This document shows positions 36,480 to 56,148 of a stretch of DNA of 64,000 nucleotides, in pieces. Position numbers and translations under genes: made by a program. The stretch is from a virus (taxonomy: Duplodnaviria; Caudoviricetes): positions 9,776 through 73,775 of IMG/VR virus record IMGVR_UViG_3300012665_000990; one strand, 5' to 3'. The first letter of the stretch is position 1. Each line of letters opens with the position of its first letter. The notes below the pieces were generated by a model. It ran no database searches. It saw nothing but the letters and a program-made list of their open reading frames with translations, and had not been told where the DNA came from.

Positions 36480-36988
36480 TGTTGAAAATTGTAAAACATC
36501 CAGACCCTATTTTAGAAGAAGTAATGCCAGCATTTGATTTTGCTAATCCAATTATGGATCCCAAGCAATTGGAAACAGAGATGTTAGCAGTAATGTTTGC
36601 ACATGACGGAATTGGCCTTGCCGCACCTCAAGTGGGAATTCGAACAAGAGTTTTTACCATGGGCCATATATTAATGAAAGAACAAAGTAATGCGTACTTT
36701 AATCCTGAAGTAGTTGATGCTAGTACTGATTTACTTGATATAGAAGAAGGGTGTTTGAGTTTCCCAACAGTTTTTGTTAAAATTAAACGACCAAGTTGGA
36801 TTGTAGGTAAGTATTTTGATAGCGAAGGCAACGAGCATCAAAATAAATTTGAAGGATATGATTGTAAATGCTTTTTACACGAGCTTGATCATTTAAACGG
36901 CATCAATTTTAAAGATAGACTTTCTACTTTAAAATGGGCCATGGCAGTTAAAAAATCTAAGAAAGTCAAAGTGAGGAACTATGCTTGA
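36479..36988 (+). CDS. def: Peptide deformylase
   Basis: GIGLAAPQVG, EEGCLSFP, HELDHLNG. Confidence 0.93.
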   Translation: MLKIVKHPDPILEEVMPAFDFANPIMDPKQLETEMLAVMFAHDGIGLAAPQVGIRTRVFTMGHILMKEQSNAYFNPEVVDASTDLLDIEEGCLSFPTVFVKIKRPSWIVGKYFDSEGNEHQNKFEGYDCKCFLHELDHLNGINFKDRLSTLKWAMAVKKSKKVKVRNYA

Positions 36989-39257
36989 ACCAAATGAAGA
37001 GTTAGAAGGTATTTTTGAACGTGCTGTATTGTTGGCTATCGAAAATAAACATCAATATATTACGTTGGAACACTTTCTACTAAGTTTAGTAAGTGATGAA
37101 AAGTTTGGCAAAAAGCTAAATGATTTTGGTACCGATGTTACAGATTTAAAATTAAATTTGACTAGTTACATTGCAAATGAATTGTCAACTATTGTTAATG
37201 AAAATCAAAGTAGCAGACCAAAGAAAACAAATAGTATTGAACGTATGTTAAATCGTGCGTTTACACAAACATTGTTTGCTGGCCGTACTACTATTGAACC
37301 TATTGATTGCTTCTTAAGCATATTGCATGAAAAGAAAAGTCATGCACATTACTACTTGCGTTTGGCTAAGATTGATAAAGACAAATTTGTAGAGTTTATC
37401 AATCAGGAAAACAACACTATTGAAAACGGTGAAGAAGCGACTATCCCAGAAAGTAAACTAGAAGCAGTTATTAATAATTTCTGTGTTAACTTGAATAACA
37501 GAGTTAAACAAAAGAAAATCGATCCAGTTATTGGTCGTGAAAAAGAAATTGAAGAGATTCAACTTGTATTGGCACGTAGACACAAATCAAACGTAATGAT
37601 GATTGGTGATCCTGGTGTAGGTAAGACTGCGATTGCTGAAGGTCTTGCTCGTAACATTGTTGAAGGCAAAGTACCAAAGTTTATCGAAGACCACACAGTC
37701 TATACATTGGATATCAGTGCGTTACTTGCTGGCAGTAAGTATCGTGGTGATTTTGAAGAAAGACTAAAGACTGTACTAACTGCTATTGAAAAGAAAAAGA
37801 AAGCTATTCTATTCATTGACGAAGCACACATGATGAATGGTGCTGGAGCAAGCAGTGGTCAAAGCAATGACATGGCTAATATGTTAAAACCAGCATTGGC
37901 CAAGGGCGGCTTTAAAGTTATTGCCAGTACTACATGGGAAGAATTCCGCAAGCACTTTGAAAAGGATCGTGCCCTAATGCGCAGATTCCAACGTGTTGTA
38001 GTTGACGAGCCAGATGAGGAAACAGCAATTAAGATCCTTACAGGACTTAAGAAGTATTACGAAAAACATCATGGTGTCAAAATTACCAAACAGGCAATTA
38101 TCGACAGCGTCAAGTATAGTATCAAGTACATGAGTGATAAGAAGTTGCCCGACAAGGCAATTGATATTATTGATTGTGCATGTGCTCGTTTTAAGATACG
38201 TGACGAAGAAAATGGCACTGTTGATCATGACGAAGTAGTTTATGAAGTTGCTAAAATGACTAACTTGCCGTTAGAGCAAGTTGCGGCTAAAGAGACTAAG
38301 AAACTTACAAACTTAGAAGATAGTTTGAAAGCAGAAGTGTTTGGTCAAGAAAATGCCATTGATACATTGCTTGATAAAATTTATATTGCTCAAGCAGGAC
38401 TTAAATCAGTCAACAAACCAGTTGGTAGTTTCTTGTTTGTAGGTCCCACTGGTTGTGGTAAAACTGAAACTGCTAAACAGCTGAGTGACAAAATGGGAAT
38501 TAAACTTGTACGTTTTGATATGAGTGAGTTCCAAGAAAAACACGCAGTGGCAAAGTTTATTGGTGCACCTCCAGGATATGTTGGCTTTGAAGACAATGCT
38601 GGACAATTGATTACTACATTACAAGAAACACCTAACTGTGTATTGTTATTAGATGAGATTGAAAAAGCACATCCTGATGTTGTTAACGTAATGTTACAAT
38701 TAATGGATAATGGATTCGTAACTGGCAGTAATGGTAAGAAAGCAGATGCACGTAACGCCATTATTATCATGACCAGTAACTTAGGTGCCGCAGATAGTGA
38801 AAAGAAAAACATTGGCTTTGGCAGTCAAGAAAAGTTAAGCGAAACTGATACTGCTGTTAATGCGTTCTTTGCTCCAGAGTTTAGAAATCGTTTAGACGGT
38901 ATTATTAAGTTTAAGAAACTTGGTCATAGTGTAATGCTCAAAGTTGTTGACAAGTTTGTGCGTGAAATGAACGAACTAATTTCTGATAAGAATGTGTTTG
39001 TACAATTAACAGACGTTGCACGTGACTATTTGGTTGAACAAGGATTTAACAGTAAAATGGGCGCACGTCCATTACAAAGAGTAATTGATGATAAAATTAA
39101 GAAGCCATTAAGCCGTGAAATACTGTTTGGTCAATTACTTAACGGTGGAATTGTTAAAGTTGACAAAACAGATGATGGTTTAGTATTTGATTATTTAGAT
39201 CCTCTACCCGTAGCATTAGAGCCAGAGGTAATTGAAGATGTCATTTCGGAAGATTGA
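36981..39257 (+). CDS. clpA: ClpA AAA+ unfoldase
   Basis: N domain, GDPGVGKT and GPTGCGKT Walker A motifs, RFDMSEF, GAPPGYVGF, IGF ClpP-docking loop. Confidence 0.93.
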   Translation: MLEPNEELEGIFERAVLLAIENKHQYITLEHFLLSLVSDEKFGKKLNDFGTDVTDLKLNLTSYIANELSTIVNENQSSRPKKTNSIERMLNRAFTQTLFAGRTTIEPIDCFLSILHEKKSHAHYYLRLAKIDKDKFVEFINQENNTIENGEEATIPESKLEAVINNFCVNLNNRVKQKKIDPVIGREKEIEEIQLVLARRHKSNVMMIGDPGVGKTAIAEGLARNIVEGKVPKFIEDHTVYTLDISALLAGSKYRGDFEERLKTVLTAIEKKKKAILFIDEAHMMNGAGASSGQSNDMANMLKPALAKGGFKVIASTTWEEFRKHFEKDRALMRRFQRVVVDEPDEETAIKILTGLKKYYEKHHGVKITKQAIIDSVKYSIKYMSDKKLPDKAIDIIDCACARFKIRDEENGTVDHDEVVYEVAKMTNLPLEQVAAKETKKLTNLEDSLKAEVFGQENAIDTLLDKIYIAQAGLKSVNKPVGSFLFVGPTGCGKTETAKQLSDKMGIKLVRFDMSEFQEKHAVAKFIGAPPGYVGFEDNAGQLITTLQETPNCVLLLDEIEKAHPDVVNVMLQLMDNGFVTGSNGKKADARNAIIIMTSNLGAADSEKKNIGFGSQEKLSETDTAVNAFFAPEFRNRLDGIIKFKKLGHSVMLKVVDKFVREMNELISDKNVFVQLTDVARDYLVEQGFNSKMGARPLQRVIDDKIKKPLSREILFGQLLNGGIVKVDKTDDGLVFDYLDPLPVALEPEVIEDVISED

Positions 39258-40348: not shown

Positions 40349-40372
40349 TTCATATCCCATTACGTTACAAAT

Positions 40373-40404
40373 AAATACATGATAGATTACTGTCATGTAT
40401 TTTT
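40373..40404 (+). terminator. Hairpin/terminator overlapping a late promoter
   Basis: AAATACATGATAG-ATTA-CTGTCATGTATTT followed by TT; TAAATA at 40372-40377 lies in the 5' arm. Confidence 0.6.
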
Positions 40405-40439: not shown

Positions 40440-40796
40440 ATGTTTTTAAGAGAATTTTTTAGTCAAAACACAAGCGTTGATAAAGAAGAAGAATCCAGTG
40501 AGGAACTATGTAAAGACCTCATGGCATATATCTTAGATCATGATGACCTTCATAAGAAATTAATGATCCCTATTCTTAACGATGTTAAGAAAGAAATAGC
40601 AAACAAAACATACGACAAGAAAACAGCCTATAAAAAGTATGACGAACTAGTTGATACAGCCTGTGTAATGTTTTATAAAGATGAAAAACTACAGGGCGAC
40701 CCAAATAAATTATTCCCTGCCCCATTAAGAGTTAAAGTTGCTCGACAATTGGCCCAAATTAACCAAGAGAGTCATAAAGAGCATGAGGATAACTGA
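40440..40796 (+). CDS. Hypothetical, putative internal head protein
   Basis: Degenerate leader MFLREFF; first gene of the tagged cluster. Confidence 0.5.
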   Translation: MFLREFFSQNTSVDKEEESSEELCKDLMAYILDHDDLHKKLMIPILNDVKKEIANKTYDKKTAYKKYDELVDTACVMFYKDEKLQGDPNKLFPAPLRVKVARQLAQINQESHKEHEDN

Positions 40797-41799
40797 ACTT
40801 TTTGAGGGCGGTTGGGACACTACTAAAACTCAACAAACTGTATTACATCCAAAGATAGTCAGTGTGGCTCTCAAGGTAGTAGATCAGTTTGTTTCTGATT
40901 TCAACAACTATCTAAAAAAACAAAATATCCCTCCAATTAAACGTGGAAAGCCTACAGGTAGTAGTGCTTATCATGAACAAGACTCGGTTGAGAGACCTGA
41001 TGTTATATATGGCGATATTGATTTACAAATGATTGGTAATCCTGTAGAAGGATTAACGTATGGTCAATTTACTAGTTATTGGAATGATCTTGCAGACAAA
41101 TTTGTTACAACAATACATCCGCAATATGTAGACACTAGTGAAAGCAAACCAGGACATCCCATATTTCAAGTTGGTCAAGATCAATACGTACAAGTTGATT
41201 TTATGTGGCATGAAGAAAAGATGGCAGAATGGGGTGCGGCACGTGTAACACCAGAACGTGGAATGAAGGGATTGCTAATGGGCAATATGTTTAGTGTGTT
41301 AGGTGAACTGCTAAACATGAGTATTCAACACGCAGGCGTTCAATTAAAAACAGTAAATGGACAACAAGTACCATTTAGTAAACAAAAAGGTGTTGAAGTT
41401 CAAACTCTCAGTATTAACCCAAGAACGTTTGTATACGATATCTTCAATTACCTACATCAACAAATTTTAGGTACACCAGCTAAAAAAGTTGATCCTCTGT
41501 TAAAACAATTTCCAGGTAACAATATTGACGATGTTAAAATTGCCACTATGGTAAATGCTGTTAAAGGCTTTGCTCGTAGTTGCGAGCTAAATCAGATGTT
41601 TGGGCAGGGCGCATTAGAGCCATATGCTAGTGCAGATGATTTTTTACAAAAGTTTTTAGCACGATACGATGAGAAAGCACAAATTGACATTGCAGGTAAG
41701 AAGCGTGACAAAGCAACAACCCCCGAAGCAATTGCTCGTGCAAATGCAGATCGTGAAAAGATACAAGGTGGTTTAGATATAGTTAAGGGGTTATTTTAA
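40783..41799 (+). CDS. Pol-beta-superfamily nucleotidyltransferase-like protein with capsid-targeting-like leader
   Basis: MRITELFE/GG leader; TGSS...GDIDLQ and VQVDFM acidic motifs. Confidence 0.65.
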   Translation: MRITELFEGGWDTTKTQQTVLHPKIVSVALKVVDQFVSDFNNYLKKQNIPPIKRGKPTGSSAYHEQDSVERPDVIYGDIDLQMIGNPVEGLTYGQFTSYWNDLADKFVTTIHPQYVDTSESKPGHPIFQVGQDQYVQVDFMWHEEKMAEWGAARVTPERGMKGLLMGNMFSVLGELLNMSIQHAGVQLKTVNGQQVPFSKQKGVEVQTLSINPRTFVYDIFNYLHQQILGTPAKKVDPLLKQFPGNNIDDVKIATMVNAVKGFARSCELNQMFGQGALEPYASADDFLQKFLARYDEKAQIDIAGKKRDKATTPEAIARANADREKIQGGLDIVKGLF

Positions 41800-42638
41800 T
41801 GCGTATTAATGAATTATTATTTGAAGCAGGGAAAAGACTTGCTAGTCAAGGTATTGAAGTGTCACGTGTTAATAAACAAGACTTTTTAACTGCCAAAGGC
41901 GCACTTGACCCTATATTAAAGAAAGCAGGCATTGTTGGTGGTTGGACTGCTGGCGGTGCTGGAAGTTTTGATCCAGAGCACCCATATGGTGGCGGTGGCA
42001 GAGAAGACAGTGGTGACATTGATATTATGATTGATCCACAAAATTTAACAAAACAATTTCCTCCAGACATAGAAGCATATAATTCTGCCAGTGCTAAACC
42101 AATTGGTCCAAAAGCAATGGCAAATGTTCTAGCAGATCCTGCTAAAAAAGCAAAATTAGAAATGAGTTCAAGTAAATGGGCATTAGCTGATTACATGAGC
42201 AGAAGTGGATTCCGTACTGACCCAGGAACACTAACTGTTGAATATGGTGCAGGTGGTAAAACATTTTCAGTAGACTTAATTGTGCGTCCAAAAGAATCAT
42301 GGGAACTACATACACATGACTTTGCTAAAGATACAACAATGCGTGGTGGCGATTTATGGATACAGATGTATCCAGTACTGGCTAAACTTGCTAGCCAAAA
42401 AACTTTTATTGATCCAAAGACAGGTGAAGAAAAAGGCAACTTGCAGTTTAGTCCAGACAGAGGCCTAGTAGATAGAGATACCAATCAAGTCATTGCTATT
42501 AAGAAAGATGACATTGCTAAAATACTATTAGGACCACAAGCAACTGCTAGAGACTTAGCCAGCATGAGTGGTATTAGAGCCGCACTAGCAAAACAGCCGC
42601 AAAAGTTATCCCAATTACCCCAACAGCAAACACAATAA
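41799..42638 (+). CDS. Pol-beta-superfamily nucleotidyltransferase-like protein with capsid-targeting-like leader
   Basis: MRINELLFE/AG leader; GAGS...DSGDIDIMID and FSVDLIV motifs. Confidence 0.65.
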   Translation: MRINELLFEAGKRLASQGIEVSRVNKQDFLTAKGALDPILKKAGIVGGWTAGGAGSFDPEHPYGGGGREDSGDIDIMIDPQNLTKQFPPDIEAYNSASAKPIGPKAMANVLADPAKKAKLEMSSSKWALADYMSRSGFRTDPGTLTVEYGAGGKTFSVDLIVRPKESWELHTHDFAKDTTMRGGDLWIQMYPVLAKLASQKTFIDPKTGEEKGNLQFSPDRGLVDRDTNQVIAIKKDDIAKILLGPQATARDLASMSGIRAALAKQPQKLSQLPQQQTQ

Positions 42639-42648
42639 ATATAACATT

Positions 42649-44544
42649 ATGTATTTGATAGAACTTTTTACACCATCTCGCAAAGCAATTATGGAAGGCA
42701 TTGACCATCCAGAAGACCTTATTATCTCTCAAGGTAGTACAGGTGCAGATCGTGTTCTAAAAGATTTAGCAAGTTTACAAACAGATCCAAGTACAGTGAG
42801 TGTTAAATGGGATGGATTCCCTGCCGTTGTTTTTGGTCGAGATGAAAATGGTAGTTTAGTATTCATGGACAAGCACATGTATGACAAAGTTGTCAAAGGT
42901 GCTATGAGTTTTATGAGTATTAAAGATTATGATATATCACGTGATGCAAATCGTGGCGACTTGTGGGAAAAAGAAAGTGTACTAAGACCAGCATTAGAGA
43001 AAGCTGTACCAAATGTAAAAAATCAATTTTGGATGGGTGATCTAATGTGGACTGGAACTCCGCCAACAAGTGATGGTTATTTTGTATTCAAACCAAACAC
43101 AGTTGAATATCGTGTACAAATAGATGACGGCAAGGGAAATAGTTTAGGTGACAAAATTGCTAGAAGTATTGGCGGTATTGCTGTACACACATATATTCCT
43201 GGTATTGGTTCAGGTGATCAACCATTAGTAGGATTAAAAGGTTTATCAGAAGATACAGGTGTTGTATTTTTGGTTGGTGAAATGAAAGACAAACCACGTG
43301 TCGGAATTAACACAGACCTATTAGCAGAAACACAAACTATTATTAATAACCATAGAACAGATGTTGATGAGTTTATTAAAGATTTAACAGCAATGAAGGG
43401 CAAGGCAGTTATTACTGCTATGGGCCCTTTCATTACACGTATGCTGGAAGAGAACGATATACAAACTAATATAGTTCCACGCTTCTTAGAATTTTTAAAA
43501 GAACGTTTAAATGAAACTGCACAGGCAAAATTCTTAGGTGCTAATAAAGATGGCTGGTTATATCAAGAAGGTCAAGGCGGACCAGGCTTACTAGGCATTT
43601 GGACCATGTGGGCCGCCATTGTTGATTTAAAACTGCATATCAAACAACAAATTGATACACAGCAACAAGGTAGTGAAGTTATTGCTATCACTGACGGACT
43701 AAATGCACACGAAGGTTATGTGTTTGGTGCAGGTAAAGACAAATTAAAATTAATTGATCGTTTAGGATTTAGCCGTGCTAACTTTGCTAAACATAAAGTA
43801 CCAGATGAAGAGATTGCACAAAAGAGTAAAATGCCTTTGGCAACATTCTGTTTTGGTCGTATGAACCCTCCTACAATGGGTCACGGTTTAGTAATGAACA
43901 AGACTATTGAGGCGGGTGGTGAAAATTCTTTTGTATTCTTAAGTAATAGTGTTGGTACTGATGATCCATTAGATCCAAATACAAAAGCACAATTCATTGC
44001 ACAAATTTATCCAGAAGTTGCTAGTCATATTGTAACTGATTACGTACAAGGTCCAATTTATGCGGCTAATTGGTTATACCAAAAAGGTTATCGCAACATG
44101 GCATTTGTTGCTGGCAGTGATAGACTAGGCAAAGAAAAAGGCAGTATTGAAAAATTATTAACTAGTTGGAACAGTGGTCCTATTCGTAGCACGGATCCAG
44201 CTGGAGCACGTGAACACGTGGTTATGCAATATATCAGTGCAGGTCAACGTGATGCTGATGCAGAAGGTGTAGAAGGTTACAGTGGAACTAAAGCTCGGCA
44301 AGCCGCAGTTGCTGGCAACGAACAACAATTCCAACAATTTACTGGTGTTGGTAATGATGTTATAGTTAACGGAAAAACTTTATACCAAACAGTAAGAGAA
44401 GGTTTAGGAATTAAAGATCAAGCGCAAAAACCTGCGCCAGTACAACAAAAACAACCTGTGCAACAACCTGCACAACAAACACAAGTTACTAAAAAAATTC
44501 CTGGTAAGGCACCAGCCAAAGTAGGAGCAGAGGAACAACTATGA
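42649..44544 (+). CDS. Two-domain protein: ligase-like KxDG domain plus HxGH-type cytidylyl/adenylyltransferase domain
   Basis: SVKWDGFPAVVFG, GDLMW, HEGYV, KLIDR in the N part; FGRMNPPTMGH, AGSDR, SGTKAR in the C part. Confidence 0.7.
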   Translation: MYLIELFTPSRKAIMEGIDHPEDLIISQGSTGADRVLKDLASLQTDPSTVSVKWDGFPAVVFGRDENGSLVFMDKHMYDKVVKGAMSFMSIKDYDISRDANRGDLWEKESVLRPALEKAVPNVKNQFWMGDLMWTGTPPTSDGYFVFKPNTVEYRVQIDDGKGNSLGDKIARSIGGIAVHTYIPGIGSGDQPLVGLKGLSEDTGVVFLVGEMKDKPRVGINTDLLAETQTIINNHRTDVDEFIKDLTAMKGKAVITAMGPFITRMLEENDIQTNIVPRFLEFLKERLNETAQAKFLGANKDGWLYQEGQGGPGLLGIWTMWAAIVDLKLHIKQQIDTQQQGSEVIAITDGLNAHEGYVFGAGKDKLKLIDRLGFSRANFAKHKVPDEEIAQKSKMPLATFCFGRMNPPTMGHGLVMNKTIEAGGENSFVFLSNSVGTDDPLDPNTKAQFIAQIYPEVASHIVTDYVQGPIYAANWLYQKGYRNMAFVAGSDRLGKEKGSIEKLLTSWNSGPIRSTDPAGAREHVVMQYISAGQRDADAEGVEGYSGTKARQAAVAGNEQQFQQFTGVGNDVIVNGKTLYQTVREGLGIKDQAQKPAPVQQKQPVQQPAQQTQVTKKIPGKAPAKVGAEEQL

Positions 44545-45761
44545 AAATCACACAAATAATTGAACATAAAAAAGGTGTTCGTGCAGTTAAGGCAACTGTT
44601 AAGCCAAGAAACTTTGTTGCTAAAAATGCAATTCAAAGTGGTGCTGGGGCACACAAAGATAAAAAGAAAGCAGCCAAACAAGGTGATGTTAAGCACAAAG
44701 CCCAATCAGTTGCAGAAGGTATTGGCGATACAATTTCTACCGTTGCTACAAAAGTTGGCGATGCACTAGCAGGTGCTTTACCAAAAGAATATAGACCTTT
44801 TGATAATGATACTGCCGCTAAAAATCAACAATCAATGAAAGTGGCTAAAAACGAAAGCAATGCCGAGTACGATGATGAAGCTGGTATGGCTGACAACAAT
44901 CTTGAAACACTTCGTCGTGCCGTGGACGGCATTGACGATGTTATCAATGCAGGCGATAACTTGCCTGAATGGTGTCAAGAAAAGATTGCAGTGGCTAAAT
45001 CAATGTTAATAGCAGTGTGGGATTATATGCGTTCAGAAGAAGAACGTGGCGTAAACGAACAAGTTGGTACCTATTCTAGCAGTAATATGCAAATGTCAGT
45101 AGACGGTGCTAGACAACTAGCTACTACAGATTTACTTAGAAAAAAATACGGAGACAATTTCCAAGATAAACCAGGAAATGGGATGCACTATAATCAAGAA
45201 GTCAAAACAATAGCTGATCCTAAAAACCCTGGGAAATATCACTCAACGGTAACATTAAAACCAAAAGATTATACGCTATCACCAAATATATCAGCAAGAC
45301 CTAGCATGGATCCTAATCAAGACTTTGATTATTTCCATAAAGGTGAACAACTAAAATCAGATCATCCACTTTTTAATAAAGTTAAGCAGATGCACATTGA
45401 CAGTTTAAACCCTGTGGCTGAACCAGATGTAAAAGAATCAAGAATGACAGAAGTATCACGCAACCCAGATACAATGAGCGCAACTGATTATGACCGTTAC
45501 CAACAAGGTCAAATGGACCAACAAAAGCGCAATTTCAAACGTGACGAAATGGAACACGAACTTGGCGACGAAGATCGCGGAATGTATTTTGTTGTGATTG
45601 CCAAGAATGGTAAATGGGAACATACTAAGGCGCAGCCTAGACAAGAAGGTATGAATGCCGCACAAAAAGTAATCAATGCATTACACGCCAAATATCCTAG
45701 TATGCATTTAGGTATGCAAGGACCAGACGGCAAAGTATATAATATGGGTAAAGGCAAATAA
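44541..45761 (+). CDS. Putative internal head protein with multiple protease sites
   Basis: MKITQIIE leader; internal VAE, VNE, VKE, MTE sites; LPEWCQEKI block. Confidence 0.55.
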   Translation: MKITQIIEHKKGVRAVKATVKPRNFVAKNAIQSGAGAHKDKKKAAKQGDVKHKAQSVAEGIGDTISTVATKVGDALAGALPKEYRPFDNDTAAKNQQSMKVAKNESNAEYDDEAGMADNNLETLRRAVDGIDDVINAGDNLPEWCQEKIAVAKSMLIAVWDYMRSEEERGVNEQVGTYSSSNMQMSVDGARQLATTDLLRKKYGDNFQDKPGNGMHYNQEVKTIADPKNPGKYHSTVTLKPKDYTLSPNISARPSMDPNQDFDYFHKGEQLKSDHPLFNKVKQMHIDSLNPVAEPDVKESRMTEVSRNPDTMSATDYDRYQQGQMDQQKRNFKRDEMEHELGDEDRGMYFVVIAKNGKWEHTKAQPRQEGMNAAQKVINALHAKYPSMHLGMQGPDGKVYNMGKGK

Positions 45762-45762
45762 G

Positions 45763-46197
45763 ATGGACAAGTATCAATTAGCTCTTAAAACAGCGTTTGC
45801 AAGTGAGTATGCATTTGCAATCAAAGCACAAAACTTTCATTGGAATGTAGAAGGTTCTCTGTTTCCACAACTACACGAGTTGTTTGAAAAAATTTATACA
45901 GAAGTTTATGGAAGCATTGACACTTTTGCAGAGCAATTACGTGCATTACAGATATATGCTCCCGCTAGTTTACAAAAATTTAGTATGCTATCAGTAGTTG
46001 AAGATGAAAACGAAATCCTTGAGCAAGGCGCTATGGTTGGTGAGCTATTAGATGATAGCGAAAAAATGGCTAACATTTTTAAATTAACATTTAGCATGGC
46101 TGAACAAGCTGGTGATCATGGGTTAAGTAACTTTTTAGCTGATCGTCAAGACGCACATAAGAAACACAGTTGGATGCTACGTAGCACGTTAAAATGA
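45763..46197 (+). CDS. dps: Dps/ferritin-like protein
   Basis: NFHWNVEG..FPQLHELFE, DTFAEQLR, HKKHSWML. Confidence 0.9.
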   Translation: MDKYQLALKTAFASEYAFAIKAQNFHWNVEGSLFPQLHELFEKIYTEVYGSIDTFAEQLRALQIYAPASLQKFSMLSVVEDENEILEQGAMVGELLDDSEKMANIFKLTFSMAEQAGDHGLSNFLADRQDAHKKHSWMLRSTLK

Positions 46198-46481
46198 AAC
46201 AGTATAAGATTACTACAGAAAATTTAAATCAAGATACAGATGAAGATTGTTATCTTGACAGTAGTGATCCTATACATGAATTAAAAGCAATACAACACTT
46301 AGCAGGCCTTAATAGGCATTTAAAAGAATATAAAGGTTTAGAAGGTAGCAACATAAGTGGGACAGGTAACGAAAAAGGTCAGTTAATGAAGCAACATAAT
46401 ATTAAACCAGGAACTCCAGAATGGTTCCAATTATGGTTTAGTTTGCCTTATATGACTGGCGAAAAGCCTGTAGGGAAATAA
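46194..46481 (+). CDS. Hypothetical protein
   Basis: Coupled ORF; IKPGTPEWFQLWFS motif. Confidence 0.55.
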   Translation: MKQYKITTENLNQDTDEDCYLDSSDPIHELKAIQHLAGLNRHLKEYKGLEGSNISGTGNEKGQLMKQHNIKPGTPEWFQLWFSLPYMTGEKPVGK

Positions 46482-46482
46482 G

Positions 46483-47136
46483 ATGCGTATAACTGAATTA
46501 TTAGAAACTGTTGCCAAAAAACCTGAAGAAGTGGATCAGTCCAATCTAGCCACTATACAGGGAAATGTTTACGGTAATGAAAGCGGTTATGGAAAGGCCG
46601 ATACTACTAAACCAAACTATGCTGGTGCTTTAGGTCCAATGCAAATACTACCTAGTACATTTGACTGGATGAAACAAGCAAAGATAATTCCAACTGAATA
46701 TGATATCAATAATCCTGATCAAAATAGAGCGGCAGGCGATGCATTGTTAGGACACTATCATAAAAAATATCAAGGCGACCCTGCAAAAGTATATGCGGCG
46801 TATTACGCTGGCCCTGGAGCAATAAATAAAGATGGAAGTATTAATACTCACTGGAGAGATTTAAAAAATCCCAAAGCACCAACTGTAGGACAGTATATTG
46901 AAAAAGCAATGGCTAGAAGTGGTGGCAACACTAATAGTTTTATGGCGTCAATTAATAATGCGCCAAGTGCTGTTAAAGATTACGTTAGTTCAACATATGG
47001 TAGTATCAAAGACTTTGTAAGTTCAATGTCAAGGCCAGAAACAACGTTTGATCCAGAAGAAGAAAAACGTAAAGAAGAACTTAAAAAGAAACGCAAGGCA
47101 TTGGCAGCATTAAAGGCGCAAGGAAAGACAGCATGA
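46483..47136 (+). CDS. Lytic transglycosylase (SLT) with capsid-targeting-like leader
   Basis: MRITELLE leader; ESG (catalytic Glu), GALGPMQILPST, AAYYAGPG. Confidence 0.8.
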   Translation: MRITELLETVAKKPEEVDQSNLATIQGNVYGNESGYGKADTTKPNYAGALGPMQILPSTFDWMKQAKIIPTEYDINNPDQNRAAGDALLGHYHKKYQGDPAKVYAAYYAGPGAINKDGSINTHWRDLKNPKAPTVGQYIEKAMARSGGNTNSFMASINNAPSAVKDYVSSTYGSIKDFVSSMSRPETTFDPEEEKRKEELKKKRKALAALKAQGKTA

Positions 47137-47492
47137 GAATTAATGAATTACTAATTGAAGGCGGCAAATTACGTGCTAGTCAAGAAAACCCAATCAGCAG
47201 ATTACAAACATTCAATGCACTAAACATGTACAATGGTGACGGATATAAAGCATATCGTTTTGGCGTTGCACTTGCAGGATCGCCCGATGTTAATGTAGAA
47301 AACGAAAGTCCATTTGCTGGTGACTATACAGTTAAAAGTTATACTGATGAAGAACAAGAAATGATTAATCATGCGGCAAAACAATTAGGTATCAAGGGCT
47401 CTACAAAAGCTGGCAATGGCAGTTTAGAACCTAAAGGCACCAATACTGCTAGTCCAGTAGCAACAATTAAAAAGAACAAATACGGCGTATAA
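47133..47492 (+). CDS. Putative internal head protein
   Basis: MRINELLIE/GG leader. Confidence 0.55.
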   Translation: MRINELLIEGGKLRASQENPISRLQTFNALNMYNGDGYKAYRFGVALAGSPDVNVENESPFAGDYTVKSYTDEEQEMINHAAKQLGIKGSTKAGNGSLEPKGTNTASPVATIKKNKYGV

Positions 47493-47493
47493 T

Positions 47494-48078
47494 ATGAAGA
47501 TACAAGAAATTCTATTAGAATTTGAACTCCCAGGTGCTCTTAGAGATATACCAGTTGCTAATATATTTGGTGCAACACTCACTGCTGGCCAAATTTCTGA
47601 TGCAATTCCAGGTGCTGATCCAAGAACTGTAATCAAATACGGTAAACAAATTAACGATATTATACAAACTAATATAACACCAAATTATACTGTAGGTAGT
47701 GCTATTGCTGATATCGCAGTTGCATTGCCAATTGGTCGTGCAATTAAAGGTGCAAAAACTGCAACTCAAGCTACAAGTGCATTAGGCGGAGTTGCCGCAA
47801 GAAGAGAACTTGGCAGAGAATTAGCAAGTAATGTTACACTCATGCCAGGAATGTCAAACTCTTCAGGATCTAAAATTGAACCTGCAAATCAGCAACCAGT
47901 TAAAAAGAAAAGAAAAAATGTTGGTGAAGTTATTCCTGTTCCAATTGGTGGGAAACAGTATAATCTACCAATTATAAAAGTATTACCAAGTTCTGGATAC
48001 ATAGTTGATGCAAGCAAAGTTCCTGGTAAAAAACCAGGCGAAACAATAGATGCCCCAGAACCAGAGGATAAACTATAA
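47494..48078 (+). CDS. Putative internal head protein
   Basis: MKIQEILLE leader; basic KKKRK patch. Confidence 0.55.
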   Translation: MKIQEILLEFELPGALRDIPVANIFGATLTAGQISDAIPGADPRTVIKYGKQINDIIQTNITPNYTVGSAIADIAVALPIGRAIKGAKTATQATSALGGVAARRELGRELASNVTLMPGMSNSSGSKIEPANQQPVKKKRKNVGEVIPVPIGGKQYNLPIIKVLPSSGYIVDASKVPGKKPGETIDAPEPEDKL

Positions 48079-48323
48079 TGCGTATTCAAGATTTATTAGT
48101 AGAAGCAGGTAGTGAAGGCGGTACTACTACCGCATCATTAGGTCCAGCTAATCCTACTGCTAATTTAAGCCCAGGGTCAGCCCGTGGAAAGAAAAGTTAT
48201 TTAGGTAGTCCAGGATCAGGGTCAGGAACTAAAGCACCACCACAGCCAAAGCCAAAAAAGCAAAAACCAACAGATAATGCCCTAGATGGCGATAGTATCT
48301 TTGGCACACCGCAAAAACGATAA
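48078..48323 (+). CDS. Putative internal head protein (small, disordered)
   Basis: MRIQDLLVE/AG leader; Gly/Pro/Lys-rich. Confidence 0.55.
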   Translation: MRIQDLLVEAGSEGGTTTASLGPANPTANLSPGSARGKKSYLGSPGSGSGTKAPPQPKPKKQKPTDNALDGDSIFGTPQKR

Positions 48324-48343
48324 ATAAAGTATCGGAGATTATT

Positions 48344-49192
48344 ATGCCATATAAAACAGCCAAACAGAAAAAAGCAATTGATGCGGCGGCACATAATCCA
48401 AAAATAGCTAAAAATTTAGGGATCAATATGAAAGATGCAAAGAAAATGTCAGCACATGGCAAAGGACAGAAGTTTAATGAGACTCAAGAAGATCCTCCAT
48501 TTGACGGTCCGTATTCTAAAGCAGGAGAAGTTAAAAAAGATCGCTATGGTAACATAATTAAAGATAAAAATATTGCTAAACATTTAGCAAAGAAAGGAAG
48601 AGCTGAAGTGGAAAAGACAACAGACACAAAAGTTAAAGAAGCAGTAGTTACTTCTGGTCCACATAAGGGCAAACAATGGAGTCCAAAAACTCCAGGGCCA
48701 ACAAATCCAAATTTTAAAGATGACGGATCGATGGGGCCAAGTGATGGAGCCACTGCGCCACCTCCAGGATATAAACCACCAAAACCAAAGTCAATGAAGA
48801 AAGCAGAAGTTGGTAGTGATACAGCAGTAGCAGTAAATGATACTGATGATCAAGAACTAACTGCAAGTATGGAACACAAAGGTAAAAAAGTTAAAGAAGC
48901 CAAAAAGAACGATGGTAATTTAGCTAATAATGCTAAACCATATGACAAGGTCACACGCGGTGATGTTATTGCTGGTCGTTTAGGTAAAGACGAAATGGGC
49001 GGTAAGAAAAAGAAAGTCAAAGAAAGTACAGAAGCTCAATTACTACGCATTGCTAAACAAGCAATGGATACAGTTAAAGCGTTGAGAGAAGCTAAACAAG
49101 AAGCGGCACGTATTAAACACATGCCAATTTCCGAAAGCGATGAATACTTTGCAGGCTTACAATCACGTTTGAACAAACAAATTAAAGGTTAA
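48344..49192 (+). CDS. Lys-rich disordered putative head/core protein
   Basis: Late promoter at 48321; repeated VKE/A, VKE/S, LRE/A, ISE/S sites. Confidence 0.5.
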   Translation: MPYKTAKQKKAIDAAAHNPKIAKNLGINMKDAKKMSAHGKGQKFNETQEDPPFDGPYSKAGEVKKDRYGNIIKDKNIAKHLAKKGRAEVEKTTDTKVKEAVVTSGPHKGKQWSPKTPGPTNPNFKDDGSMGPSDGATAPPPGYKPPKPKSMKKAEVGSDTAVAVNDTDDQELTASMEHKGKKVKEAKKNDGNLANNAKPYDKVTRGDVIAGRLGKDEMGGKKKKVKESTEAQLLRIAKQAMDTVKALREAKQEAARIKHMPISESDEYFAGLQSRLNKQIKG

Positions 49193-49202: not shown

Positions 49203-49232
49203 ATAGGGCAACGTTTATCTTGCCCTATTTTT
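49203..49232 (+). terminator. Intrinsic terminator closing the late cluster
   Basis: ATAGGGCAA-CGTTTATC-TTGCCCTAT followed by TTTT. Confidence 0.8.
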
Positions 49233-49253: not shown

Positions 49254-49282
49254 TTGACACCAGTACATAATTACGCTATAAT
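49254..49282 (+). promoter_or_regulatory. Sigma70-type promoter
   Basis: TTGACA, 17 nt, TATAAT (perfect consensus). Confidence 0.85.
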
Positions 49283-50603: not shown

Positions 50604-53279
50604 ATGAGTTATGTAGATGCTCTCTGGGATAGAGAGAAGGATATTATCAATGTCGTTGAAAGAGACGAAAAAGGTAATAGACGGTTTGTAGAATACCCCG
50701 CACGTTATCAATTTTATTACCCTGATCATAAGGGCAAGTATCGCAGTATGTTTGGCGATAACTTGAGCAAAGTCACTGTAAGAAGTTTTAAAGACTTTAC
50801 TAAAGAACAAAAAATCCACAGCAATAAAACACTTTTTGAAAGTGATATCAATCCAGTATTTAGAATATTGGAAGAAAACTATCTGGGCAAAGAACCTCCT
50901 AAAATGCACGTAGCATTTTTTGATATTGAGGTGGACTTTGATCCAGAACGTGGCTATGCTTCACCAGATGATGCGTTCATGCCAATTACTGCGATTGCTG
51001 TTCACCTGCAATGGATGGATACACTTGTATGTTTAGCATTACCTCCAAAGACAATGACTATGGAGCAAGCACAAGAGTCCATTAAAGATTTCCCTAATAC
51101 AATATTGTTTGAAACTGAAGCAGAATTGTTAGATAACTTTCTAACACTAATTGATGACGCTGACATTATCACAGGTTGGAACAGCGAAGGTTTTGACGTA
51201 CCTTATACTGTTAATCGTGTAACCCGTGTATTAAGTAAAGAAGACACTAAGCGTTTTTGTTTGTGGGATCAATATCCTAAAAAGCGTGAATATGAAAAGT
51301 TTGGTAAAACTGCTATCACTTATGACTTTGTTGGCCGTGTACACTTGGATAGTTTGGAAGTTTATCGCAAATACAAGTATGAAGAAATGCACAGTTACAG
51401 ACTTGATGTAATTGGTGAACTTGAAGTTGGTGAAAATAAAACACAATACGAAGGAACACTTGATCAACTATACAATAATGATTTCCGTACTTTTATTGAA
51501 TATAACAGACAAGACTGTGCATTGTTGGATAAGATGGATAAGAAGTTAAAATTCTTAGACCTTGCAAACGTGCTGGCGCACGGTAATACTGTATTGCTAC
51601 AAACAACAATGGGTGCTGTGGCAATGACTGAACAGGCTATTATTAACGAAGCACATCAACACGGACTAATTGTTCCAAGTCGCCAACGTAAAGGCGAACA
51701 AGGCGACACTGCGGCCGCTGGTGCGTATGTTGCATTTCCTAAAAAAGGATTGCATGATTGGATTGGTGCAATTGACATTAACTCATTGTATCCTTCAGCT
51801 ATTCGTGCGCTTAACATGGGACCAGAAACTATTGTTGGTCAGTTACGTCAAACTAAAACAGAAGAATTTATCCAAAATCAAATGCTCTTACATAAAAAGT
51901 CATTTGCAGGCAGTTGGGAAGATAAGTTTGGCAGTTTAGAATATGAAGCTGTTATGAATCAAAGTAAGTCAGAAGAGATTACTATTGACTGGAGCAACGG
52001 TGATTCTAGCGTAAACAGTGGTGCTGAGATTTACGAAGTTATTTTTAACAGTAATAAACCTTGGATGCTAAGTGCTAATGGAACTATTTTTACATACGAG
52101 TATGAAGGTATTATTCCAGGCTTATTGAAAAAGTGGTATGCTGAACGTAAAGAAATGCAGAGGAAGTCTCGAGATGCTGAAGTTGCTGGCAACAAAATTG
52201 AAGCTGAATATTGGGACAAGCGACAACTAGTACGTAAGATTAATTTGAATTCACTATATGGTGCGTTGTTAAATCCAGGTTGCAGATTCTTTGATAAGCG
52301 TATTGGACAGTCAACTACACTAGTTGGTCGATGTGTAGCAAGACACATGGCTAGTAAGATTAATGAAATTATTTGTGGCGAGTATGACTACAAAGGTAAA
52401 AGTATCATTTATGGTGATACTGACTCATGCTATTTTAGTGCCTGGAGTACTTTACGTAATGAAGTAGAAAAAGGCAACTTACATTGGGATAAAGACACCG
52501 TAGTACAGTTATATGACCAAATTGCGGAAGAAGTTAATAATAGTTTCCCACAATTTATGTTAGATTACTTTCATTGTCCAAAGTCACGTGGCGAAGTTAT
52601 TAAAGGTGGACGTGAACTAGTTGCTATTAAAGGATTGTTTATTACTAAAAAACGTTATGCTGTTCTTAACTATGATAAAGAAGGCAAACGTTTAGATGAA
52701 AATGGCAAACCTGGTAAAATTAAAGCTATGGGTTTGGACCTCAAGCGTAGTGATACTCCAGAATATATGCAGAACTTCTTAGAAGAAATTCTAATGGACG
52801 TATTGCAAGGTGCAGAAGAACAATTTGTATTAGATAAAATTATCGAGTTTAGACAAGATTTTAAATCTAAGCCAGGTTGGGAGAAGGGAAGCCCAAGACG
52901 GGCAAATAACATTACTGATTATCAAGAACAAGAACGTAAACAAGGTAAAGCAAATATGCCTGGTCACGTTCGTGCTAGTATTAACTATAATCGTTTGCGT
53001 GAAATGAACGGTGACAAGTATTCTGTACAAATTGTTGATGGTATGAAAGTGTATGTTTGCAAATTGAAAAATAACGCAATGGGTTATACCAGTGTTGCTT
53101 ATCCAGTAGATGAATTGAAAATTCCTAAGTGGTTCCAAGATTTGCCATTTGATGATTTGGCAATGGAGGAGACAATTATCGACAATAAGATTAGTAACCT
53201 TATTGGAGTTTTGGAATGGGACATTGAAAGTACCACTGATAGTGGAAGTACTTTTGGTAAGTTATTTGATTTTGAATAA
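50604..53279 (+). CDS. polB: Family B DNA polymerase (T4 gp43-like)
   Basis: FDIEV, GWNSEGFD, YNRQD exonuclease motifs; DINSLYPS, KINLNSLYG, YGDTDS, KKRYA; C-terminal KLFDF clamp-binding peptide. Confidence 0.96.
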   Translation: MSYVDALWDREKDIINVVERDEKGNRRFVEYPARYQFYYPDHKGKYRSMFGDNLSKVTVRSFKDFTKEQKIHSNKTLFESDINPVFRILEENYLGKEPPKMHVAFFDIEVDFDPERGYASPDDAFMPITAIAVHLQWMDTLVCLALPPKTMTMEQAQESIKDFPNTILFETEAELLDNFLTLIDDADIITGWNSEGFDVPYTVNRVTRVLSKEDTKRFCLWDQYPKKREYEKFGKTAITYDFVGRVHLDSLEVYRKYKYEEMHSYRLDVIGELEVGENKTQYEGTLDQLYNNDFRTFIEYNRQDCALLDKMDKKLKFLDLANVLAHGNTVLLQTTMGAVAMTEQAIINEAHQHGLIVPSRQRKGEQGDTAAAGAYVAFPKKGLHDWIGAIDINSLYPSAIRALNMGPETIVGQLRQTKTEEFIQNQMLLHKKSFAGSWEDKFGSLEYEAVMNQSKSEEITIDWSNGDSSVNSGAEIYEVIFNSNKPWMLSANGTIFTYEYEGIIPGLLKKWYAERKEMQRKSRDAEVAGNKIEAEYWDKRQLVRKINLNSLYGALLNPGCRFFDKRIGQSTTLVGRCVARHMASKINEIICGEYDYKGKSIIYGDTDSCYFSAWSTLRNEVEKGNLHWDKDTVVQLYDQIAEEVNNSFPQFMLDYFHCPKSRGEVIKGGRELVAIKGLFITKKRYAVLNYDKEGKRLDENGKPGKIKAMGLDLKRSDTPEYMQNFLEEILMDVLQGAEEQFVLDKIIEFRQDFKSKPGWEKGSPRRANNITDYQEQERKQGKANMPGHVRASINYNRLREMNGDKYSVQIVDGMKVYVCKLKNNAMGYTSVAYPVDELKIPKWFQDLPFDDLAMEETIIDNKISNLIGVLEWDIESTTDSGSTFGKLFDFE

Positions 53280-54177: not shown

Positions 54178-54544
54178 AGGTCTACAAGGCATTAGCGGGT
54201 TAATAGTATCTGGCGGCAATACTGCCCTACCGTATGTACCACCTAATTCCAATAATCCTATACAAGGTATGATGCGTATTAACAATACGGAACTTGAAGT
54301 GTTTAATGGTAGCAGTTGGCAACAACTATCTACTAGCTATGCCACAGTAGGTCTAGATCAAGATGTACTAGATATAGTACAATGGGCACGTAAGAAACGT
54401 AATGAAGAATTAGAGTACGAACGTTTGGCCAAAGAGCATCCTGCTGTACAACATGCAATTGATGCTTTTAAAAAAGCAGAAAAACAATTAGATCTAATAG
54501 TAAAATTATCGAAAGAACACGGAGAACAACTTGAAACAAGTTAA
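54170..54544 (+). CDS. Hypothetical protein
   Basis: Coupled ORF. Confidence 0.55.
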   Translation: MIKGLQGISGLIVSGGNTALPYVPPNSNNPIQGMMRINNTELEVFNGSSWQQLSTSYATVGLDQDVLDIVQWARKKRNEELEYERLAKEHPAVQHAIDAFKKAEKQLDLIVKLSKEHGEQLETS

Positions 54545-56132: not shown

Positions 56133-56148
56133 TTAGTTCAAAACTGTA

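What the first reader, a model, noticed from the sequence alone, without database searches (positions are those of the whole stretch)
40440..49192. Late gene cluster sharing a capsid-targeting-like N-terminal tag: a putative injected-cargo system
Seen: seven otherwise unrelated proteins begin M-[RK]-I-x-[EQD]-[LI]-[LIF]-x(0-1)-E: MRITELFE (40783), MRINELLFE (41799), MKITQIIE (44541), MRITELLE (46483), MRINELLIE (47133), MKIQEILLE (47494), MRIQDLLVE (48078). MFLREFF (40440) and MYLIELF..IME (42649) are degenerate versions. The block is fed by TAAATA late promoters (40372, 42636, 48321) and closed by a terminator at 49203. Established: T4 internal proteins carry a ~10-aa capsid-targeting sequence ending in Glu that the gp21 prohead protease removes at (L/I)-x-E. 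Inference: this is a modular tag-plus-payload array packaged in the head and delivered at infection, with enzymatic payloads (three nucleotidyltransferases and an SLT). That would give a pre-made arsenal acting before phage gene expression.
Basis: partly seen in the sequence, partly recalled or inferred. Interest (0 to 1): 0.85.

Follow-up and report, generated by a model that had tools for sequence, protein, structure and literature searches.

The report
Cleavable head-targeting leaders on phage cargo
A late operon in an uncultured giant T4-like phage encodes at least seven unrelated proteins, several of them enzymes, that all begin with the short leader T4 uses to load proteins into its head and then cut off, so the head's protein cargo can probably be read from sequence alone.

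Summary
The motif M-[RK]-I-x-[EQD]-[LI]-[LIF]-x(0-1)-E occurs seven times in the six-frame translation of the whole 73.8-kb contig, each time at the start of a clustered + strand gene (40783-48323). Codons differ, and the proteins are unrelated beyond the leader.

In three deep families the conserved domain begins right after an invariant Glu, with L/I/V (F or K in a few) three residues before it. That is the [LIV]-x-E cut site of the T4 gp21 prohead protease. T4 gp24 (MAKINELLRE) and Alt (MELITELFDE) begin almost identically.

A complete 322-kb relative has the T4 head module with an S77 protease. There the same leader type sits on the small protein in the gp67 position, and the capsid protein keeps L-x-E-G.

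ATAAATA late-promoter boxes feed the operon and a terminator closes it. A cyanophage homologue of one payload, and several of that homologue's neighbours, were found by mass spectrometry in S-SM1 virions.

Payloads include a Pol X-like nucleotidyltransferase, a DUF6267 + NMNAT-like fusion and an SLT transglycosylase.

This is a T4-type capsid-targeting/propeptide cargo locus in a new lineage. Packaging is inferred and injection is untested. The scan's first readers noted this same stretch before.

The parts
40371..40377 (+). ATAAATA late-promoter-like box, 63 nt before the first gene of the block; it overlaps a 13-pair hairpin at 40373-40402
   Evidence: Only 8 copies occur in 64 kb against about 32 expected, and all are on the + strand.
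40440..40796 (+). 118-aa protein of unknown function with the class-B leader MFLREFF
   Evidence: Orthologues begin MKLLEFF or MLLNEFF. The start is the same type as on the small protein in the gp67 position of the relatives' head modules.
40783..41799 (+). 338-aa Pol X-like (Pol-beta fold) nucleotidyltransferase; leader MRITELFE, then the conserved core GGWDT
   Evidence: Glu at P1 and L/I/V at P3 in 120 of 120 homologues; pLDDT 87, residues 1-11 disordered. Z 9.5-10.2 to the palm + thumb of Pol beta, lambda, mu, TdT and ASFV Pol X.
41799..42638 (+). 279-aa protein with G-S ... S-G-D-I-D motifs (Pol-beta-type nucleotidyltransferase by motif only); leader MRINELLFE, then AGKRLA
   Evidence: M1, E9 and G11 are invariant; the leader is 5-14 aa long in orthologues.
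42635..42641 (+). ATAAATA late-promoter-like box, 8 nt before the 42649 start
42649..44544 (+). 631-aa fusion of DUF6267 (KxDG / EG / KxK ligase-like motifs) with an HxGH NMNAT/PPAT-like nucleotidyltransferase and a disordered tail; bipartite leader MYLIELF...AIME|GIDHPEDL
   Evidence: Residues 395-590 match NMNAT/NaMNAT/PPAT at Z about 11.
44541..45761 (+). 406-aa protein of unknown function; leader MKITQIIE
   Evidence: The orthologue in L003 begins MKIRQLLE.
45763..46197 (+). 144-aa Dps/ferritin-like protein, no leader
   Evidence: Pfam Ferritin, E 3.4e-19.
46194..46481 (+). 95-aa conserved protein of unknown function, no leader
46483..47136 (+). 217-aa SLT lytic transglycosylase; leader MRITELLE
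   Evidence: Pfam SLT, 57.2 bits against a cut-off of 21.3; close homologues begin MRITELLE, MRIKDLLE or MKITELLE.
47133..47492 (+). 119-aa protein of unknown function; leader MRINELLIE
   Evidence: Orthologues begin MRAKEFITE or MRSKEFIVE.
47494..48078 (+). 194-aa basic protein of unknown function; leader MKIQEILLE
48078..48323 (+). 81-aa Gly/Pro/Lys-rich basic protein (pI about 10 after the leader); leader MRIQDLLVE
48320..48326 (+). ATAAATA late-promoter-like box, 18 nt before the 48344 start
48344..49192 (+). 282-aa Lys-rich basic protein, no leader; last gene of the block
49203..49228 (+). Intrinsic-terminator-like hairpin with a T-run that closes the block; a 12/12 sigma70-like promoter follows at 49254-49282

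Best explanation
The block 40440-49192 is a late-transcribed, fast-evolving cargo locus of a giant T4-like myovirus.

Proposed mechanism:
1. Its products carry a short N-terminal leader. Class A is M-[RK]-I-x-[EDQ]-[LI]-[LIF]-x-E. Class B is M-x-L-x-E-[LF]-F followed by a downstream [ILV]-x-E.
2. As with the T4 capsid-targeting sequences and the gp24/Alt propeptides, the leader brings the protein into the prohead core.
3. The S77 (gp21-type) prohead protease then removes the leader after the Glu of [LIV]-x-E.
4. The mature proteins stay in the DNA-filled head and most likely leave with the DNA at infection. They are a Pol X-like nucleotidyltransferase, a second putative nucleotidyltransferase, a DUF6267 + NMNAT-like enzyme, an SLT transglycosylase and several small basic proteins.

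What is shown:
- The leader exists, is specific to this locus, and is conserved at protein level.
- An invariant Glu (with L/I/V, rarely F or K, at P3) sits directly before the conserved domains.
- Only the leader is shared among the proteins.
- The folds of two payloads.
- The late-promoter boxes and the terminator.

What is inferred:
- Targeting, cleavage, retention in the virion and ejection.
For: 1. Specificity. The motif hits 7 times in six frames of 73.8 kb, all at the N-termini of adjacent genes. Codons differ. The proteins are otherwise unrelated.

2. Cut-site signature in three independent families.
- In 120 of 120 homologues of 40783, the residue before the GGWDT core is Glu and P3 is L/I/V. 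Nineteen of them carry 54-189 extra residues between an N-terminal leader and a retained [LIV]-x-E|GGWDT junction; two of these are labelled GNAT acetyltransferase by their source.
- In 41799 orthologues the leader varies from 5 to 14 aa, but E-[AGS]-G is invariant.
- In the 42649 family, Glu is at P1 in 97 of 98, I/L/V at P3 in 96 of 98 and Gly at P1' in 97 of 98.

3. Match to T4. T4 gp24 begins MAKINELLRE, Alt MELITELFDE, IPII and IPIII MKTYQEFIAE, and gp22 MLKEQLIAE. These are gp21 substrates, and the 10-aa IPIII leader suffices for head targeting (PMC9026906; PMC3012670).

4. Head link in relatives.
- The complete 322.5-kb relative G001 has, in T4 order, a Gp20 portal, an 80-aa protein, a 337-aa protein, the S77 protease, a scaffold and the Gp23 capsid protein.
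- The 80-aa protein sits in the gp67 position and begins MFLREFIYF.
- Across 77 related head modules the leader is on 45 of 54 small ORFs upstream of the capsid gene and on only 2 of the other roughly 600 ORFs.
- The capsid protein keeps L-x-E-G at residues 15-18 in 76 of 77.

5. Late expression.
- ATAAATA is four-fold depleted (8 copies against 32 expected) and occurs only on the + strand. It lies before a tail-fibre gene (17928) and at three sites in the block.
- In G001 it lies 11-34 nt before several leader-bearing ORFs and giant virion genes.
- G001 encodes a gp55-type late sigma factor.

6. Virion evidence in a cultured relative. Mass spectrometry of S-SM1 virions detected the cytidylyltransferase T4-GC190 (25 counts) and its neighbours T4-GC1453, 1454, 1455, 425 and 426 (PMC3037559). 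SSM1_190 is homologous to the C-terminal domain of 42649 and begins MKKFSAFLNE.

7. Structure models put the leader outside the fold: residues 1-11 of 40783 and 1-16 of 42649 are low-confidence.
Against: - There are no virion, cleavage or injection data for this phage or any close relative.
- The contig is about 21% complete and carries no protease or head gene. The protease link rests on G001, which is 64-74% identical in the shared proteins compared.
- T4 gp24 and Alt show that such leaders can be plain propeptides. A targeting role was proved only for the IPIII leader.
- Three genes in the operon lack a leader: the Dps-like gene, 46194 and 48344.
- In S-SM1 the DUF6267 homologue (T4-GC71) does not appear in the parts of the detected-protein table that were read.
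- The promoter and terminator calls are consensus matches only.
Confidence: 0.65

Rival explanations
1. The leaders are prohead-protease propeptides and the proteins enter the head, but they are not an injected arsenal. They act inside the particle or during assembly. Possible roles are core or scaffold-like components, or a kit of Dps, SOD, Pol X-like and ligase-like proteins that protects or repairs the packaged DNA. They are either expelled at maturation or never reach the host cytoplasm in active form.
For: - In T4 the core proteins gp22, gp67 and gp68 carry similar starts and are degraded and lost (PMC9026906).
- The same leader type marks the small protein in the gp67 position of the relatives' head modules.
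- The operon holds a Dps-like protein.
- An SOD elsewhere on the contig has a late promoter and a leader ending L-T-E|G, and this arrangement is conserved in G001.
Against: - An SLT transglycosylase has no substrate inside a capsid.
- The folded enzymes resemble T4 Alt, which is ejected, more than they resemble scaffold proteins.
- The locus turns over quickly between relatives. That fits host-facing functions better than assembly functions.
Confidence: 0.17
2. The leader is a recognition tag for the phage's own chaperone and protease set. DnaJ, peptide deformylase and a ClpA-like ATPase lie directly upstream, and ClpP lies at the contig start. The tag would mark these proteins for unfolding, timed degradation or translocation rather than for cleavage by the prohead protease.
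For: - DnaJ (35631), deformylase (36479) and the ClpA-like gene (36981-39257) sit next to the cluster, and the arrangement is conserved in L003, L009 and G001.
- ClpA/ClpX in jumbo phages have been proposed as translocases or virion-assembly aids (PMC7824862).
Against: - It does not explain the invariant [LIV]-x-E-[GAS] junction placed exactly at the start of the conserved domains, including after inserted domains.
- It does not explain the near-identity to the T4 gp24 and Alt starts.
- It does not explain the same leader on a head-module protein or L-x-E-G in the capsid protein.
- A role for ClpA in loading leader-bearing proteins is compatible with the main explanation rather than opposed to it.
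Confidence: 0.07
3. The shared start reflects a constraint on translation initiation or mRNA structure, or recent recombination of a 5' cassette, and has no role in the protein.
For: Many genes in the block are translationally coupled through ATGA-type overlaps, and AT-rich starts are common in phages.
Against: - The upstream DNA and the codons differ between copies.
- The pattern is absent from the other roughly 85 genes of the contig.
- The Glu is invariant across hundreds of diverged orthologues while leader length varies.
Confidence: 0.03

Closest known systems
[quoted passage not shown]
   Same: - Unrelated payloads share only a roughly 10-aa N-terminal leader that ends in (L/I)-x-E.
- The genes are late and clustered in a variable locus.
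- The phage has a gp21-type S77 protease, seen here in a complete relative.
- Some payloads are small and basic (48078, 47494).
   Different: - The leader consensus is M[RK]I.[ED][LI][LI].E rather than MKT[YF].EF..E.
- The lineage is a roughly 320-350-kb jumbo phage whose DNA polymerase is nearest to Atu_ph07, Phosso and Rak2-like phages.
- Most payloads are large enzymes.
- Some orthologues are polyprotein-like, with a leader, an extra domain and a second cut site.
- Nothing has been tested experimentally.
T4 Alt (packaged ADP-ribosyltransferase) and the gp24 vertex-protein propeptide
   Same: - The N-termini are almost identical: Alt MELITELFDE against MRITELFE, and gp24 MAKINELLRE against MRINELLFE.
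- Alt sets the precedent for an enzyme that is packaged through the prohead core, trimmed by gp21 and ejected.
   Different: - The payload folds differ (Pol X-like, DUF6267 + NMNAT-like, SLT).
- gp24 is a shell protein, so the resemblance shows protease processing more firmly than it shows core targeting.
Propeptide-processed ejection proteins of phiKZ and SPN3US giant phages
   Same: Many head-internal proteins are cut after Glu by a diverged gp21 homologue and are ejected into the host (PMC9026906, PMC5694885).
   Different: Those phages use an S/A-x-E motif with long propeptides and belong to a different lineage. Here the site is [LIV]-x-E, the leaders are 5-17 aa, and the head module is of true T4 type.
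Virion 'structural' proteins T4-GC190, 1453, 1454, 1455, 425 and 426 of cyanophage S-SM1 (Sullivan et al. 2010)
   Same: - SSM1_190 is homologous to the C-terminal domain of 42649.
- It lies in a comparable cluster of late genes near the replication genes.
- It starts with a CTS-like leader, MKKFSAFLNE.
- It was detected in purified virions.
   Different: - The proteins were reported only as structural proteins.
- In the papers read and searched here, no leader, cleavage or cargo interpretation was found.
- In S-SM1 the DUF6267 and HxGH domains are separate genes.
Internal core proteins with an SLT domain in podoviruses (T7 gp16 type), and the injected polyvalent proteins of phages
   Same: A lytic transglycosylase and enzymatic effectors are carried in the particle and released during genome delivery (PHROG 342 hit; PMC7824862).
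   Different: Those are giant multidomain proteins that form the ejectosome. Here there are separate small genes, each with its own cleavable leader, in a contractile-tailed phage.

Membership tests
T4-type CTS / gp21-processed internal head proteins | Short N-terminal leader ending in (L/I)-x-E directly before the mature protein | tested here: met
   All seven leaders end in [LI]-x-E. Glu is invariant before the conserved core in the three families analysed in depth, with L/I/V at P3 in nearly all members and F or K in a few 41799 orthologues.
T4-type CTS / gp21-processed internal head proteins | The genome encodes a gp21-type (Peptidase_S77) prohead protease within a T4-type head module | tested here: inconclusive
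   Absent from this contig, which is about 21% complete. Present in the complete relative G001, in the order portal, small protein, 337-aa protein, S77 protease, scaffold, Gp23.
T4-type CTS / gp21-processed internal head proteins | Only the leader is shared; the payloads are unrelated and the locus is variable between relatives | tested here: met
   BLASTP all-against-all. Gene gain, loss and reordering in L003, L009 and G001.
T4-type CTS / gp21-processed internal head proteins | Late transcription from T4-type late promoters | tested here: inconclusive
   ATAAATA boxes lie at 40371, 42635 and 48320. The motif is depleted four-fold and also precedes a tail-fibre gene. The same pattern and a gp55-type sigma factor occur in G001. 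These are consensus matches only; there are no expression data.
T4-type CTS / gp21-processed internal head proteins | Protein present in the virion with the leader removed, and ejected into the host | not testable with these tools
   Only indirect evidence: the S-SM1 homologue of the 42649 C-terminal domain, and several neighbours of that S-SM1 gene, were detected in virions.
Family X DNA polymerase / Pol-beta-fold nucleotidyltransferase (40783) | Palm + thumb fold with a G-S motif and a carboxylate triad | tested here: met
   Model pLDDT 87. Z 9.5-10.2 over 169-187 residues to Pol beta, lambda, mu, TdT, Thermus Pol X and ASFV Pol X. G59, S60, D78, D80 and D139 are invariant. No 8-kDa or fingers domain is present, and activity is untested.
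ATP-dependent ligase / capping-enzyme nucleotidyltransferases (DUF6267 part of 42649) | Motifs I (KxDG), IV (EG) and V (KxK) and the ligase adenylylation fold | tested here: inconclusive
   K53, D55, G56, E355, G356, K365 and K367 are invariant. Profile comparison with T4 DNA ligase and Rnl2 found nothing. The fold searches were filled by the C-terminal domain.
HxGH (cytidylyltransferase-like) nucleotidyltransferases (42649, residues 395-590) | Rossmann-like fold with a (T/H)xGH motif | tested here: met
   PHROG cytidyltransferase hit, E 2.8e-33. T409, G411 and H412 are invariant. Z 10-11 to NMNAT, NaMNAT and PPAT. The substrate is unknown.
SLT lytic transglycosylase (46483) | Pfam SLT domain with the catalytic Glu-Ser motif and a GxMQ motif | tested here: met
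   PF01464 at 57.2 bits against a cut-off of 21.3. The sequence reads ...GNESGYG... and ...GPMQI....

The most novel reading that the evidence does not exclude
The [LIV]-x-E leader rule lets the head-packaged proteome ('ejectome') of a large uncultured clade of giant T4-like phages be read from sequence.

In this reading the head carries a pre-made DNA protection-and-repair kit. It would consist of a Pol X-like gap-filling enzyme or enzymes, a ligase-like + NMNAT-like enzyme, a Dps-like protein and a leader-bearing superoxide dismutase, delivered together with an SLT. Some of the cargo would be made as polyproteins (leader, GNAT-labelled domain, cut site, Pol X-like core) that the prohead protease splits inside the capsid.

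This would be a phage counterpart of the base-excision-repair enzymes that, from my own recall and not checked here, African swine fever virus packages in its particles.
Probability: 0.2. Interest if true: 0.75.

Novelty: new member of a known kind. Interest (0 to 1): 0.55.

Why it matters
Which proteins a phage injects along with its DNA is known for only a handful of cultured phages, yet these proteins decide the first minutes of infection.

Here a simple sequence rule marks candidate cargo in a clade seen only in metagenomes. The rule is a short N-terminal leader ending in [LIV]-x-E directly before the folded domain, combined with a late promoter. At least 600 related capsid loci exist in IMG/VR.

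The rule points to cargo types not found described for T4-like heads in the papers read and searched here: a Pol X-like enzyme, a DUF6267 + NMNAT-like enzyme, an SLT, and polyprotein forms. It also re-reads 'structural proteins' found by mass spectrometry in cyanophage S-SM1 as probable CTS-type cargo.

Two practical uses follow. The leader is a candidate packaging tag for engineering, and the prediction can be tested directly on viral-fraction metaproteomes.

Tried and rejected
- Megablast of the block against 50,697 phage records: no match.
- tblastn of 40783 against the same records: no match.
- PF03420 (prohead protease) on the window's own contig: no match. This is uninformative because the contig is about 21% complete.
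- Sequence searches of PDB with 40783, 41799, 42649 and the A3 profile: nothing meaningful.
- hhalign of the 42649 family against T4 DNA ligase and T4 Rnl2: no similarity, so 'ligase-like' rests on motifs only.
- hhalign of the 40783 family against the 41799 family: E 0.011, probability 4%, not significant. Common origin of the two putative nucleotidyltransferases is not shown.
- ESM Atlas look-ups for 44541 and 47494: no usable lead, and the Atlas's own models are poor.
- NCBIfam and PADLOC scans of ten cluster proteins: only Dps and SLT, no defence or anti-defence family.
- IMG/VR scan with the SLT protein: no close locus. The large protein search did find tagged homologues.
- MKQYKITTE at 46194 considered as a leader: rejected, because the Glu is not conserved in G001.
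- A DNA-level repeat or recombination cassette as the cause of the shared start: rejected on codon and upstream divergence.

Full report
**What the window is**

The window is 64 kb of a 73,775-base IMG/VR contig that CheckV rates about 21% complete. Nearly all genes are on the + strand. The contig carries:
- a T4 gp43-type DNA polymerase (50604-53279), a gp44-type clamp loader and giant tail-fibre genes;
- a DnaJ, peptide deformylase and ClpA-like set just upstream of the finding.

The polymerase is closest, at 42-50% identity, to jumbo phages Phosso, Atu_ph07, SCTP-2 and the Rak2/121Q group.

A complete relative with terminal repeats, G001 (322,512 bases), shares the locus at 64-74% protein identity. 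G001 has a T4-type head module in T4 order: Gp20 portal, an 80-aa protein, a 337-aa protein, the Peptidase_S77 prohead protease, a scaffold and the Gp23 capsid protein. It also has a gp55-type late sigma factor.

**Checking the observation**

- The pattern [RK]-I-x-[EQD]-[LI]-[LIF]-x(0-1)-E, searched without requiring a Met in all six frames of the whole contig, occurs seven times. All seven are these gene starts.
- A far looser pattern over 95 gene calls adds one outside gene.
- Upstream DNA is unrelated and codons differ.
- Beyond the leader the proteins show no similarity, apart from 24 shared N-terminal residues between 41799 and 47133.

This is protein-level selection on a short leader. 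It is neither chance nor a DNA repeat.

**What the leader looks like across relatives**

Three families could be sampled deeply.

*Family of 40783 (120 homologues).*
- The conserved core starts GGWDT.
- The residue before it is Glu in 120 of 120, and the residue three before it is L, I or V in 120 of 120.
- About 100 homologues have an 8-9-aa leader directly on the core.
- Nineteen have 54-189 extra residues between an N-terminal leader and the core. Two of these proteins are labelled GNAT acetyltransferase by their source. They still keep [LIV]-x-E|GGWDT at the junction, as expected for a polyprotein cut at two sites.

*Orthologues of 41799.*
- The leader varies from MTIQE to a 14-aa form.
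- Met1, the Glu and the following [AGS]-G never vary.

*Family of 42649.*
- The leader is bipartite: M-x-L-x-E-[LF]-F, about nine variable residues, then [ILV]-x-E|GIDHPEDL.
- Glu is present in 97 of 98, I/L/V at P3 in 96 of 98 and Gly next in 97 of 98.

Close SLT homologues also start MRITELLE, MRIKDLLE or MKITELLE.

The AlphaFold models place the leaders outside the folded domains.

**Link to T4 and to the head**

Read from the T4 record itself:
- gp24 begins MAKINELLRE;
- Alt begins MELITELFDE;
- IPII and IPIII begin MKTYQEFIAE;
- gp22 begins MLKEQLIAE.

These are substrates of the gp21 protease, which cuts after Glu in a short motif. The first ten residues of IPIII are enough to target foreign proteins into the head. 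T-even internal proteins are described as diverse proteins that share only this sequence (PMC9026906; PMC3012670).

In the clade studied here:
- The leader type M-x-L-x-E-F also marks the 80-aa protein in the gp67 position of G001.
- In 77 related head modules it is on 45 of 54 small ORFs upstream of the capsid gene, and on only 2 of the other roughly 600 ORFs.
- The capsid protein keeps L-x-E-G at residues 15-18 in 76 of 77.

The lineage's own head proteins therefore carry the same signature that marks the cargo cluster.

**Timing of expression**

- ATAAATA occurs 8 times in the window against about 32 expected, and always on the + strand.
- It lies before a tail-fibre gene (17928), before an SOD gene (3861), and at 40371, 42635 and 48320 in the block.
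- In G001 the same heptamer lies 11-34 nt before giant virion genes and before five of the twelve leader-bearing ORFs.
- The block ends at a hairpin plus T-run (49203-49228). A perfect sigma70-type promoter then starts the polymerase unit.

These are consensus matches. They fit a late operon but do not prove one.

**Experimental support from a cultured relative**

Sullivan et al. 2010 detected 41 proteins in purified S-SM1 virions. Among them were the 'cytidylyltransferase' T4-GC190 (25 counts) and T4-GC1453, 1454, 1455, 425 and 426 (PMC3037559). In the S-SM1 record these are SSM1_188, 190, 191, 192, 195 and 197, one block next to the replication genes.

SSM1_190 matches residues 399-590 of the 42649 protein (E 6e-18) and begins MKKFSAFLNE. 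SSM1_192 begins MLSFKELQE. Melnitz and HTVC008M have similar starts on the homologous genes.

In the papers read and searched here, none interprets these as CTS-type cargo.

**The payloads**

- **40783:** a Pol-beta-fold nucleotidyltransferase, closest to the palm + thumb of family X polymerases (Z 9.5-10.2, 169-187 residues aligned). G-S and three Asp residues are invariant.
- **41799:** has G-S and S-G-D-I-D motifs, but its fold was not modelled and its relation to 40783 is not significant.
- **42649:** joins DUF6267 (invariant KxDG, EG and KxK; ligase-like by motif only) to an HxGH domain that matches NMNAT, NaMNAT and PPAT at Z about 11.
- **46483:** an SLT transglycosylase.
- **45763:** Dps/ferritin-like, without a leader.
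- **44541, 47133, 47494, 48078 and 48344:** no assignable function. Several are basic.

**Plasticity of the locus**

Between this contig, L003/L009 and G001, the block gains, loses and reorders leader-bearing genes, while the flanking ClpA-like and polymerase genes stay put. A different phage group (L012-L020) carries the same payload families with its own leaders, such as MYLYE|GG and MKIRDIILE.

**Most likely mechanism and rivals**

1. Late in infection the operon is expressed.
2. The leaders bring the proteins into the assembling prohead core.
3. The S77 protease cuts after the Glu.
4. The mature proteins remain with the DNA and leave with it at the next infection.

The leader and cut-site signature are shown. 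Targeting, retention and ejection are inferred by analogy with T4.

Rivals considered:
- cargo that works only inside the particle;
- a tag for the neighbouring Clp/DnaJ machinery;
- a translation artefact.

The last two fail to explain the invariant junction and the head-module link. A ClpA role in loading would be compatible with the main model (PMC7824862).

**Novelty**

The principle is established for T-even phages, so this is a new member of a known kind. What is new is the lineage, the leader consensus, the enzymatic and polyprotein cargo, and a rule that can be applied to metagenomes.

Noticed in passing
window 3861-4421; G001 about 16800-17354: An Fe/Mn superoxide dismutase has an exact TATAAATA 5 nt before its ATG and a roughly 15-aa N-terminal extension, MYNFIKNLTE|G (L-T-E-G). 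The G001 orthologue also has AATAAATA just upstream and a leader ending ...ITLAE|S when read from a GTG start. It may be another head-packaged protein.
   Followed up: partly
window 35631-39257, and contig bases before the window (window coordinates -439 to 169): The phage encodes its own proteostasis set: DnaJ, peptide deformylase and a 758-aa ClpA-like ATPase directly upstream of the cargo block. An ORF at the contig start begins like ClpP; that reading is by eye and was not scanned. The DnaJ-Def-ClpA arrangement next to the block is conserved in L003, L009 and G001.
   Followed up: partly
window, whole length: The heptamer ATAAATA is four-fold depleted (8 copies against about 32 expected) and occurs only on the + strand, mostly 5-110 nt before gene starts (1545, 3861, 17928, 25110, 40371, 42635, 48320). 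This is as expected if it is the late promoter and is avoided elsewhere.
   Followed up: yes
window 49254-49282: A perfect 12/12 sigma70 consensus (TTGACA, 17 nt, TATAAT) lies right after the terminator of the cargo block. It heads the unit that runs into the DNA polymerase gene.
   Followed up: no
window 44541-45761 (residues 23-55); G001 269407-271566 (residues 65-100): A short basic motif (PHROG 1359, a 39-position model) recurs near the N-terminus of two otherwise different cargo-locus proteins. Its function is unknown.
   Followed up: no
proteins P0196, P0201, P0204 and others: Homologues of the 42649 protein range from 579 to 1084 aa because of variable C-terminal additions. Some carry a pterin-4a-carbinolamine dehydratase domain (PF01329). 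The payload is therefore modular at its C-terminus as well.
   Followed up: no
window -896 to -450 (contig 8879-9325): A 148-aa ORF next to the putative ClpP begins MREFINVVTE|S, another start ending V-T-E. No late-promoter box was seen in the 60 nt upstream.
   Followed up: no
window 4484-9644 and 54531-63611: From the scan's earlier notes only, not examined here: a SUF Fe-S assembly operon and a 7-deazaguanine DNA-modification gene set lie elsewhere in the window.
   Followed up: no
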